The notes under the pieces are model-generated. The model was not told the origin of the DNA. It worked only from the letters and a program-made list of their open reading frames with translations, and made no database searches. A stretch of 5,959 nucleotides of DNA from a virus (lineage: Duplodnaviria > Heunggongvirae > Uroviricota > Caudoviricetes), in the IMG/VR virus record IMGVR_UViG_2713896782_000022, one strand, 5' to 3'. The translations under genes were made by a program, and so were the position numbers. This document shows, piece by piece, positions 3,430-3,492 of the stretch (positions are counted from its first letter, which is position 1; every line of letters starts with the position of its first letter).

Positions 3430-3440
3430 ATCAGCCTCCT

Positions 3441-3467
3441 GAAAATAAAAAAACCGCCGCAGCGGTT
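3441..3467 (-). terminator. Rho-independent terminator (minus-strand orientation) between terL and the capsid gene
   Basis: Minus-strand RNA reads AACCGC-UGCG-GCGGUU followed by UUUUUUUAUUUU (reverse complement of 3442-3467). The stem is only 6 bp, possibly 7 with a G-U pair. There is no T-run after the stem on the plus strand, so it is unidirectional. The U-tract directly abuts the AGGAGG RBS of the capsid ORF. Confidence 0.55.
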
Positions 3468-3492
3468 CATGATGGTTACAGTGTGAACAGGG

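What the first reader, a model, noticed from the sequence alone, without database searches (positions are those of the whole stretch)
3430..3492. Intrinsic terminator between terL and the capsid gene, directly abutting the capsid RBS
A stem plus U-tract terminator oriented with the operon sits in the 63-bp terL-capsid spacer, and its U-tract ends 1 nt before the AGGAGG of the capsid ORF. There is no room for a promoter after it, so capsid expression from upstream transcription requires read-through. That suggests either antitermination-dependent late transcription or deliberate attenuation. A terminator in front of the most highly needed structural gene is counter-intuitive and may mark a regulatory checkpoint.
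Basis: partly seen in the sequence, partly recalled or inferred. Interest (0 to 1): 0.45.

Follow-up and report, generated by a model that had tools for sequence, protein, structure and literature searches.

The report
Terminator inside a Stx-phage late operon
The hairpin-plus-U-tract between the terminase and capsid genes is a real, evolutionarily conserved transcription terminator. It sits in the late operon of a lambda-like Shiga-toxin phage whose Q antiterminator lets RNA polymerase ignore such signals, so it is an ordinary though nicely conserved example of a known arrangement.

Summary
On the minus strand, the 63-nt terL/capsid spacer (3492..3430) holds a 7-bp hairpin (3468..3451, -10.2 kcal/mol). 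It is followed by U7-A-U4, one C, AGGAGG (3440..3435) and GTG (3429).

The window is 99.97% identical to Stx2c phage 2851 and occurs in about 1,250 E. coli genomes. In that phage, a Q antiterminator gene, a phage-21-type Q-binding element and a tR'-like terminator lie about 11 kb upstream. Everything from Q to the tail genes is co-oriented.

The hairpin, U-tract and Shine-Dalgarno arrangement is conserved upstream of the protease-capsid gene. It is found in relatives down to 38% protein identity, in Enterobacterales, Snodgrassella, Marinobacter and Hydrocarboniphaga. The loops vary freely, two stem pairs show compensatory changes, and a purine-U dinucleotide sits at the predicted RNA-release position.

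Phage 2851 carries several more sense-strand terminators in the same late operon, before the major tail, tape-measure and K-like genes and flanking stx and a moron.

Best reading: it stops RNA polymerase that has not been modified by Q, and Q-loaded polymerase reads through. A capsid-specific checkpoint is not. Intra-late-operon terminators are already described in lambdoid phages. No 3'-end or termination data were available.

The parts
5151..5714 (-). terS (small terminase), overlapping terL by 4 nt
   Evidence: ORF. Pfam Terminase_2, E = 4.5e-08. Annotated as terminase small subunit in RefSeq and in phage 2851.
3493..5154 (-). terL (large terminase). Its stop codon TAA is at 3495..3493, 24 nt upstream of the hairpin.
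   Evidence: Pfam TerL_ATPase and TerL_nuclease. Annotation.
3430..3492 (-). 63-nt terL / protease-capsid intergenic spacer
   Evidence: Identical in Sakai prophage Sp9.
3451..3468 (-). Terminator hairpin GAACCGC-UGCG-GCGGUUU (7 bp, tetraloop, -10.2 kcal/mol)
   Evidence: On 28 distinct homologous sequences, 96.4% of cells are paired, against 34-56% when the 3' partners are slid. Two pairs show compensatory changes.
3442..3453 (-). U-tract U7-A-U4. The first three U also close the stem. Predicted main RNA release site is U 3445, with A 3446 as -2 and U 3445 as -1 of the (U)7RU motif.
   Evidence: Sequence. HUB motif GC(U)7RU from bioRxiv 10.64898/2026.05.29.728758. A purine-U at +8/+9 after the last stem G/C is found in 45 of 52 distinct homologous cassettes. 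The release site is an inference, not a measurement.
3435..3440 (-). Shine-Dalgarno AGGAGG of the protease-capsid gene, 1 nt after the U-tract and 5 nt before GTG
   Evidence: (A/T)GGAG is conserved at this distance in relatives.
1492..3429 (-). Prohead protease (S78) fused to an HK97-type major capsid protein, 645 aa, GTG start
   Evidence: Pfam Peptidase_S78 and Phage_capsid. RefSeq annotates the same ORF.

Best explanation
The element is a functional Rho-independent terminator embedded in the Q-dependent late operon of a lambdoid (Stx-type, phage 2851/1717/BP-4795-like) phage.

Unmodified RNA polymerase would reach it in a lysogen through leaky read-through of tR', moron promoters or spurious initiation. 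It would pause on the U7-A-U stretch, the 7-bp hairpin would form in the RNA exit channel, and the transcript would be released around U 3445. The strongly translated protease-capsid gene and the genes downstream would therefore stay silent.

After induction, Q loads onto polymerase at pR'. Its nozzle prevents hairpin formation, so the polymerase runs through this and the other intra-operon terminators and the capsid gene is transcribed as part of one long late mRNA.

The tight abutment to the Shine-Dalgarno sequence most likely reflects genome compaction. A U-rich leader directly 5' of the SD may add a translational benefit as a side effect.

Shown here:
- the anatomy of the element;
- its conservation and covariation;
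- the termination-type bubble-edge signature;
- the presence of Q, a Q-binding element and a tR'-like terminator upstream in the 99.97%-identical phage 2851;
- the multiplicity of sense-strand terminators in the operon.

Inferred:
- that it terminates unmodified polymerase efficiently;
- that Q-loaded polymerase reads through it.
For: 1. Canonical anatomy in the sense orientation.

2. Selection on the structure.
- About 60 distinct spacers keep the stem while the loop varies freely: TGCG, TCCG, TTCG, GCAT, CACG, TACG, CTCG, TCAG, CGAT, CCCGA and others.
- The distance from stem end to start codon stays at 19-24 nt.
- Covariation: 96.4% of cells paired against 34-56% when slid; AU/GC/CG and CG/AU swaps at two pairs; 0 of 500 shuffles reach the observed score.
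- The element persists in relatives with only 38-57% protein identity.

3. Signature of termination itself. The conserved interruption of the U-run (UA, CG or CA followed by U) puts a purine-U at +8/+9 after the stem in 45 of 52 distinct cassettes. This is the -2/-1 'RU' of the GC(U)7RU motif reported as required for strong intrinsic termination. A pure translational enhancer would not need this phasing.

4. Antitermination context. Q is PF06530 at E = 8e-25. The QBE-like sequence GTTGAGCAAATGAGCA matches the published phage 21 QBE. A perfect GC-U7-AU terminator lies right behind it. All late genes are co-oriented. Q21 and Q-lambda block terminator hairpins processively.

5. It is one of many.
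- The strict scan finds 7 sense, 2 antisense and 0.17 expected.
- The relaxed scan finds 11 sense-strand sites in the 30 kb. Two of the 11 lie upstream of Q.
- The sites include hairpin/T-tract/SD junctions before the major capsid protein (MCP), major tail protein (MTP), tape-measure protein (TMP) and K genes.
- The four 47-65-nt gaps terL/MCP, tail-terminator/MTP, T/TMP and Ant/K all contain one.

6. A Marinobacter-type relative with a lambdoid layout has the same cassette, plus a terminator just behind the gene in the Q position. Relatives that lack the cassette have almost no sense-strand terminators in their morphogenesis regions.

7. The literature already proposes this role for intra-late-operon terminators.
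Against: - No RNA 3'-end, read-through or Q-dependence data for this site could be examined. Termination and its suppression are inferred.
- The hairpin is modest. At -10.2 kcal/mol it is the weakest of the seven strict hits.
- Position -10 is G rather than the preferred C of the GC(U)7RU motif, so efficiency on unmodified polymerase could be only partial.
- Nothing shows that there is sense-strand transcription in lysogens that needs blocking at this point. No Hfq-bound orphan RNA was called at the junction in Sakai.
- Conservation of the second U-run and of the fixed distance to the SD could mean that translation or mRNA stability is also under selection.
- For the distant relatives (Marinobacter, Hydrocarboniphaga, Snodgrassella types) no recognisable Q protein was found in the DNA available.
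Confidence: 0.6

Rival explanations
1. Deliberate attenuation during lytic growth. The terminator is only partly suppressed by Q and trims the amount of transcript that continues into the head and tail genes, setting a fixed ratio between terminase mRNA and structural-gene mRNA.
For: - The phage L genome paper lists partial termination as one possible role of intra-operon terminators.
- The element is of moderate predicted strength: -10.2 kcal/mol and G instead of C at -10. That is what an attenuator might look like.
- Similar elements recur at several junctions, which could give a stepwise decline.
Against: - The polarity is the wrong way round. Capsid and major tail proteins are needed in hundreds of copies and terminase in few, yet the terminators precede the abundant genes.
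- Q21-type and Q-lambda complexes are described as essentially unbreakable and terminator-blind over tens of kilobases.
- No expression data were available.
Confidence: 0.12
2. Primarily a post-transcriptional element. The hairpin protects the 3' end of processed terS-terL mRNA, or the 5' end of processed capsid mRNA. The U-rich stretch directly 5' of the SD acts as an S1-binding or standby translational enhancer, as in the rnd leader. The resemblance to a terminator is secondary.
For: - The U-tract abuts a strong SD at a conserved distance. The same design precedes the two most abundant virion proteins, MCP and MTP.
- U-rich and AU-rich leaders bind 30S/S1 and enhance translation, and the rnd case is cited in PMC5934652. 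That the rnd leader is a hairpin followed by U8 resembling a terminator is from my memory of Zhang & Deutscher 1992, which the library does not hold.
- The second U-run is conserved beyond what termination alone needs.
Against: - The same cassette also precedes low-abundance genes, tape measure and K-like peptidase.
- Predicted accessibility of the SD/start region is unchanged when the hairpin is mutated, deleted or shuffled: 0.40 for wild type against 0.41 +/- 0.03.
- The conserved purine-U at the exact -2/-1 release position and the G-rich stem base point to termination.
- Many relatives, apparently from other hosts, express the same gene without any hairpin or U-run.
Confidence: 0.18
3. Functionless relic. 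A terminator that once ended a terminase module or a moron has been carried along at a mosaic junction.
For: - Terminators flank morons and module boundaries in this phage (stx, Arc/Ant).
- Identical stems are re-used at different junctions: AACCGC/GCGGTT at MCP and TMP, and ACCCAGC-TTCG-GCTGGGT twice.
Against: The element persists in position and phase across relatives whose proteins have diverged to 38-57% identity. Stem changes are compensatory, the loop drifts freely and the rest of the spacer is unalignable. A neutral relic would have decayed.
Confidence: 0.05

Closest known systems
Q-dependent late operons of lambdoid phages (lambda, 21, 82; pR'-QBE-tR' cassette)
   Same: - A Q gene (PF06530), a 21-type QBE-like repeat and a perfect GC-U7-AU terminator lie upstream in the 99.97%-identical phage 2851.
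- The late genes form one co-oriented block.
- Q-loaded RNAP is known to ignore hairpin terminators over tens of kb.
   Different: The classical cassette describes the promoter-proximal terminator tR'. This element lies about 11 kb downstream inside the operon, and its own response to Q has not been measured.
Intra-late-operon terminators noted in P22-like phage L and other lambdoid phages (bioRxiv 10.1101/2020.10.05.325894)
   Same: A predicted rho-independent terminator inside a single-promoter late operon at a module boundary. The authors state that such terminators are not unique, that their roles are unknown, and that they may attenuate transcription or stop spurious non-antiterminated transcription.
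   Different: In L the terminator follows the procapsid module. Here it precedes the protease-capsid gene and is fused to its RBS. This work adds deep conservation, covariation and recurrence at four RBS junctions.
Moron-flanking terminators of lambdoid prophages (Juhala et al. 2000 concept, as cited in PMC4104026)
   Same: Sense-strand terminators bracket stx2 and the Arc/Ant insert in the same operon.
   Different: The terL/MCP element does not flank accessory DNA. It lies between two core morphogenesis genes and is conserved together with them.
rnd (RNase D) leader: U-rich sequence upstream of the SD required for translation (Zhang & Deutscher 1992)
   Same: A U-run directly 5' of the SD. 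By my recollection it follows a GC hairpin that looks like a terminator. The U-rich enhancer role is cited in PMC5934652.
   Different: The rnd element is in a 5' leader of a monocistronic mRNA. Here a translational role is untested, and the in-silico RBS accessibility test showed no hairpin effect.

Membership tests
Rho-independent (intrinsic) terminator | GC-rich RNA hairpin in the direction of transcription | tested here: met
   7-bp stem with 4 G-C pairs and a tetraloop, -10.2 kcal/mol, on the coding (minus) strand.
Rho-independent (intrinsic) terminator | 7-9-nt U-tract immediately after the hairpin | tested here: met
   An uninterrupted U7 starts inside the stem base, followed by A and U4. 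It is conserved as U6-C-(G/A)-U3 in relatives.
Rho-independent (intrinsic) terminator | Bubble-edge dinucleotides GC at -11/-10 and RU at -2/-1 (HUB model, 2026 preprint) | tested here: inconclusive
   The window reads GG-U7-AU. Positions -11 G, -2 A and -1 U match, but -10 is G instead of C. RU is in phase in 45 of 52 distinct cassettes. This predicts a working terminator that may be sub-maximal.
Rho-independent (intrinsic) terminator | Structure maintained by selection (compensatory changes) | tested here: met
   96.4% of cells paired, 2 of 7 pairs with double changes, variable loops, 0 of 500 shuffles reach the score. The four core G-C pairs never vary and so carry no information.
Rho-independent (intrinsic) terminator | RNA 3' ends / transcript release at the U-tract in vivo or in vitro | not testable with these tools
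   Term-seq data for strain Sakai exist (PMC7547250), but raw data cannot be read here.
Q-dependent lambdoid late operon | Q antiterminator gene at the end of the early-right operon | tested here: met
   Not in the window. In phage 2851 (99.97% identical over the window) it is L173 3565-4053, PF06530, E = 8e-25, above the cut-off.
Q-dependent lambdoid late operon | pR' with a Q-binding element followed by a terminator (tR') | tested here: met
   TTGACA and GTTGAGCAAATGAGCA lie at the 3' end of Q. The latter matches the phage 21 QBE ATTGAGCA/AaTGAGCA quoted. A hairpin plus GC-U7-AU follows about 50 nt downstream. This is a sequence match only, and promoter activity was not tested.
Q-dependent lambdoid late operon | Lysis, packaging, head and tail genes co-oriented downstream without an intervening promoter | tested here: met
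   Annotation of NC_049943. No sigma-70-like promoter on the coding strand of the window.
Q-dependent lambdoid late operon | Q-loaded RNAP reads through this particular terminator | not testable with these tools
   Needs in vitro transcription or in vivo RNA mapping with and without Q.
Known prophage sRNAs of EHEC (HnrS/EcOnc10-12 and other EcOnc) and Rfam families | Location or sequence match to a described RNA gene | tested here: not met
   HnrS maps between Rz and the HNH gene, antisense to the late operon, in Sp9. None of the listed EcOnc Hfq peaks lies at the terL/capsid junction. Rfam gives nothing near gathering score; the best hit is isrK at 15.2 bits, E = 8.6.
U-rich translational enhancer (rnd-type / S1 site) | U- or AU-rich single-stranded tract just 5' of the SD | tested here: met
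   AUUUUC directly precedes AGGAGG. The tract is conserved.
U-rich translational enhancer (rnd-type / S1 site) | Removal lowers translation without changing mRNA level | not testable with these tools
   Needs reporter fusions. In silico, the hairpin does not change predicted RBS accessibility.

The most novel reading that the evidence does not exclude
The hairpin/U-tract/SD cassette may be a dual-coded junction module rather than a plain insulator. The same roughly 40 nt would terminate unmodified polymerase. In the read-through late mRNA it would also provide a U-rich ribosome-loading platform and a hairpin that marks or stabilises processed mRNA ends, so that gene-by-gene expression levels are set inside one 25-kb transcript.

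A more speculative variant concerns the extended, interrupted U-run (U7-A-U4). It could let even Q-nozzle polymerase terminate at a low, tuned frequency. This would be the 'Q-dependent terminator' idea raised as a prospect in PMC9388147.

The recurrence of the cassette at four RBS junctions and its conservation down to 38% protein identity are compatible with this reading but do not demonstrate it.
Probability: 0.2. Interest if true: 0.5.

Novelty: new member of a known kind. Interest (0 to 1): 0.28.

Why it matters
This head module is present in about a quarter of complete E. coli genomes (1,252 of 5,426). It is part of Stx1-, Stx2a- and Stx2c-converting phages, so anything that gates its expression bears on phage production and toxin-gene spread.

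The roles of terminators inside lambdoid late operons are openly described as unknown. This one offers a well-defined test case:
- it is deeply conserved;
- it has a predicted release site;
- Q, the Q-binding element and tR' of the 99.97%-identical phage 2851 are identified;
- public Term-seq data exist for a strain that carries identical copies.

In practice it also warns annotators and synthetic-biology users that the terL-capsid junction cannot be moved out of a Q context without losing capsid expression. Conceptually it adds little beyond textbook Q antitermination.

Tried and rejected
1. Known sRNA. The recently described multicopy prophage sRNA HnrS (66 nt, ends at an intrinsic terminator, lies 'within late genes') looked like a candidate. 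Its Sakai coordinates place it between Rz/Rz1 and the HNH gene, antisense to the late operon and outside this window. None of the EcOnc Hfq peaks listed in Tree et al. maps to the junction.

2. Rfam. No family came near its gathering score. The isrK hit over 3447..3532 has 15.2 bits and E = 8.6, which is chance.

3. Hairpin as an insulator that keeps the RBS open. Predicted unpaired probability of SD..+13 is 0.40 in wild type, 0.39 with the 5' arm mutated, 0.40 with the hairpin deleted and 0.41 +/- 0.03 for 100 shuffled hairpins. There is no support.

4. Bidirectional terminator or an antisense function. On the plus strand the hairpin is followed by TCATGATGG with no T-run.

5. Promoter inside or after the element. 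No sigma-70-like site lies on the coding strand, and only 1 nt separates the U-tract from the SD.

6. Ribosome-coupled attenuation by terL translation. The terL stop is 24 nt upstream of the stem (17 nt in relatives), too far for a terminating ribosome to mask the hairpin. This is sequence-based reasoning.

7. Enhancer specific to abundant proteins. This is weakened because the same cassette precedes the tape-measure and K-like genes.

8. The pre-major-tail cassette could only be followed in relatives at or above 90% identity, so it gave no covariation information.

9. I tried to read Zhang & Deutscher 1992 directly, but it is not held.

10. Two align_proteins calls failed on out-of-frame references.

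Full report
WHAT IS THERE

All genes of the window run on the minus strand:
- terS, 5714..5151;
- terL, 5154..3493;
- a 63-nt spacer, 3492..3430;
- a 645-aa ORF, 3429..1492, that fuses an S78 prohead protease to an HK97-type major capsid protein;
- the start of a portal gene.

Read on the minus strand the spacer is ...catcatGAACCGC-TGCG-GCGGTTT-TTTTATTTTC-AGGAGG-ctgat-GTG.
- The built-in scan lists the hairpin (3468..3451; 7 pairs, 4 of them G-C; tetraloop) as its best terminator-like site.
- The hairpin alone is worth -10.2 kcal/mol. It appears in the MFE and centroid folds of the region.
- It is unidirectional, because no T-run follows on the plus strand.

IS IT MORE THAN CHANCE?

By the loose scan the window as a whole is not enriched (4 found, 5.9 expected). 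The 76-nt fold is also not exceptional (z = -1.5).

I therefore ran a stricter scan (dG <= -8, at least 6 T of 8, at least 3 T in the first 4). It finds 0.17 sites per 30 kb per strand in Markov-simulated sequence. In the homologous 30 kb of phage 2851 it finds 7 on the sense strand and 2 on the antisense strand, this site included.

The decisive argument is comparative. I collected about 170 loci encoding relatives of the protease-capsid protein from bacterial genomes and viral contigs.
- Among Enterobacterales relatives (68-100% protein identity) there are about 50 distinct spacers. All keep a hairpin, a T-run and (A/T)GGAG, with 19-24 nt from stem end to start codon.
- The stem is AACCGC/GCGGTT in E. 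coli and ACCCGC/GCGGGT in most others.
- The loop drifts freely: TGCG, TCCG, TTCG, GCAT, CACG, TACG, CTCG, TCAG and others. The rest of the spacer is unalignable.
- The same cassette is found in Snodgrassella, where protease and capsid are separate genes and the hairpin follows terL. It is also found in Hydrocarboniphaga, Marinobacter and several metagenomic phages at 38-57% protein identity.
- It is absent from many other distant relatives, in which terL and the capsid gene are nearly contiguous.
- On an alignment of 28 distinct sequences, 96.4% of cells pair, against 34-56% when the 3' partners are slid. Two of seven pairs show compensatory double changes (A-U/G-C/C-G and C-G/A-U). No shuffle of 500 reaches the observed covariation score. 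The four inner G-C pairs never vary and so say nothing either way.

WHERE IT COMES FROM

The region is 100% identical to O157:H7 prophages and occurs in 1,252 of 5,426 complete E. coli genomes, up to 7 copies per genome. It is also 100% identical to the long-tailed lambdoid Stx phages 1717 and 2851, 99.9% identical to YYZ-2008, and 95% identical to BP-4795. The whole window is 99.97% identical to phage 2851.

In that phage the order is nin genes, Q, three tRNAs, stx2c, lysis genes, HNH, terS, terL, protease-capsid, portal, connectors and tail genes. All are on one strand.
- Q matches Pfam PF06530 at E = 8e-25.
- At its 3' end lie TTGACA and GTTGAGCAAATGAGCA. The latter matches the tandem phage 21 Q-binding element quoted in the phage L paper.
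- About 50 nt further there is a hairpin followed by GC-U7-AU, a textbook tR'.
- Structural work shows that Q21 and Q-lambda form a nozzle on the RNA exit channel that prevents terminator hairpins from forming, and that they act processively over tens of thousands of nucleotides (PMC9388147).

IT IS ONE OF MANY

With slightly relaxed thresholds, 11 sense-strand terminator-like sites are found in the 30 kb of phage 2851. Two lie upstream of Q. The other nine lie in the late operon:
- after the tRNAs;
- after stx2B;
- after Rz;
- terL | MCP;
- tail-terminator | major tail protein;
- chaperone T | tape measure;
- inside a minor tail gene;
- after gene L, before an Arc/Ant moron;
- after that moron, before the K-like peptidase.

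Four of these sites (major capsid protein MCP, major tail protein MTP, tape-measure protein TMP and K) have the same design: hairpin, T-run, SD and start codon within 17-23 nt. Each of these four sits in a 47-65-nt gap between genes, and all four such gaps hold one.

The capsid junction is therefore not a singular checkpoint. The design also precedes low-copy proteins, so it is not specific to abundant ones.

Other comparisons point the same way. Relatives that lack the terL/MCP hairpin have almost no sense-strand terminators in their morphogenesis regions. A Marinobacter-type relative that has the hairpin shows a lambdoid layout with another terminator just behind the gene in the Q position.

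A SIGNATURE OF TERMINATION ITSELF

The T-run is interrupted at a conserved place: TA in E. coli and CG or CA elsewhere, each followed by T. This puzzled me until I read a 2026 preprint. [quoted passage not shown]
- The window reads GG-U7-AU. Positions -11 G, U7, -2 A and -1 U fit. Position -10 is G rather than C.
- In 45 of 52 distinct cassettes a purine-U sits at +8/+9 after the last stem G/C, across the E. coli, Enterobacter, Marinobacter, Hydrocarboniphaga and Snodgrassella types.
- A translational enhancer would not need this phasing, so the element appears to be selected for termination.
- The G at -10 and the modest hairpin suggest a working terminator that may not be maximal.

WHAT IT IS NOT

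- It is not HnrS/EcOnc10-12. That multicopy prophage sRNA lies between Rz and HNH, antisense to the late operon.
- It is not any other Hfq-bound orphan RNA listed for Sakai.
- Rfam has nothing.
- The hairpin does not change predicted RBS accessibility.

MECHANISM

Best-supported reading (confidence 0.6):
- The element is an intrinsic terminator that releases unmodified RNA polymerase around U 3445.
- It thereby keeps the strongly translated protease-capsid gene and downstream genes silent in lysogens.
- Q-loaded polymerase from pR' reads through it.

Rivals:
- Partial attenuation during lytic growth (0.12). The polarity is the wrong way round for the protein amounts needed.
- A mainly post-transcriptional role as mRNA-end protector and U-rich translational enhancer (0.18). 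U-rich leaders are known enhancers (PMC5934652).
- A neutral relic (0.05). Conservation contradicts this.

The first and third readings are not mutually exclusive.

KNOWN OR NEW?

Q antitermination is textbook. Terminators inside lambdoid late operons have been noted before, with the explicit remark that their roles are unknown and with the same two hypotheses (phage L).

I found no description of this particular terminator. It is best classed as a new member of a known kind. What this analysis adds is its deep conservation, the compensatory changes, the in-phase RU motif and the repeated terminator-RBS junction design.

LIMITS

No RNA 3'-end or expression data could be examined. Both termination and Q read-through at this site are inferred.

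Many of the compared sequences are related, so counts of sequences are not counts of independent events.

The HUB motif comes from a preprint.

Q could not be identified in the distant relatives, because only limited flanking DNA was available and no Pfam match was found for the gene in the Q position.

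Noticed in passing
window 262..311: A run of 50 N interrupts the portal gene. The flanks map to phage 2851 with a 9-bp overlap (window 261 = L173 18335; window 312 = L173 18343). The Ns are therefore an assembly or scaffold gap, or masking, and not missing sequence.
   Followed up: partly
L001 6260..6164 (minus strand) = L173 about 21430..21495: Two tandem terminator-like hairpins precede the major tail gene. GGTCAC-GGT-GTGACT + TTTTCTTTTTT overlaps the TGA stop of the tail-terminator gene. 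CCCGC-CGCGT-GCGGG + TTTTTTATTATC-AGGAGG-caga-ATG has the same design as the terL/capsid junction. Both are conserved in all E. coli variants sampled at or above 90% identity.
   Followed up: partly
L173 22912..22950 and 28856..28890: Hairpin/T-run/SD/start junctions also precede the tape-measure gene (AACCGC-TGAG-GCGGTT, the same stem as at the capsid junction) and the K-like C40 peptidase gene (ACCCAGC-TTCG-GCTGGGT, the same hairpin as at L173 1521 in the early region). Re-use of identical terminator stems within one genome may reflect recombination at junctions.
   Followed up: no
window 1492..3429 (-); L027 4001..4705 and 4729..6048: The prohead protease and major capsid protein are one 645-aa fusion here and in most relatives. 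In Snodgrassella prophages they are two adjacent genes.
   Followed up: no
L111 (Sakai Sp9) about 3023..3070 = NC_002695 1779522..1779569 (-): The published sRNA HnrS (EcOnc12) lies between Rz/Rz1 and a small antisense gene. It is upstream of HNH/terS, on the strand opposite to the late operon, and about 3.4 kb from the terL/capsid junction. It is outside the window.
   Followed up: yes
spacers of L002-L010, L016, L017, L072-L104, just 5' of the hairpin: A motif ACGTCAGTTAA(T/C)G is conserved between the terL stop and the hairpin in the Enterobacter/Citrobacter/Kluyvera-type relatives. It is absent from the E. coli version. Its function is unknown.
   Followed up: no
L173 17375..19954; L001 7697..10281: The portal gene of this module is unusually long, 2,580 nt or about 860 aa. 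In strain TR01 it is annotated as frameshifted. A 222-nt ORF sits between the capsid and portal genes.
   Followed up: no
L254 4737..5228 and 5336..5352: In a Marinobacter-type phage, the 163-aa protein in the position of Q has no Q-family Pfam match, only a sub-threshold sigma-70 region 4 hit. It is followed within about 110 nt by a strong terminator ahead of the lysis genes. It may be an unrecognised late antiterminator.
   Followed up: partly
window 5807..5836 (+): The only sigma-70-like promoter match in the window (TTAACA-18-TAACAT with an extended TG) lies upstream of terS and points antisense to the late operon. It is at chance level.
   Followed up: no
L001 21091..21324 and 19794..21095: In the O157:H7 TR01 copy of this prophage the region where Q should lie is degraded, with truncated RusA and DUF6645 genes. 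This copy probably cannot antiterminate its own late operon.
   Followed up: no
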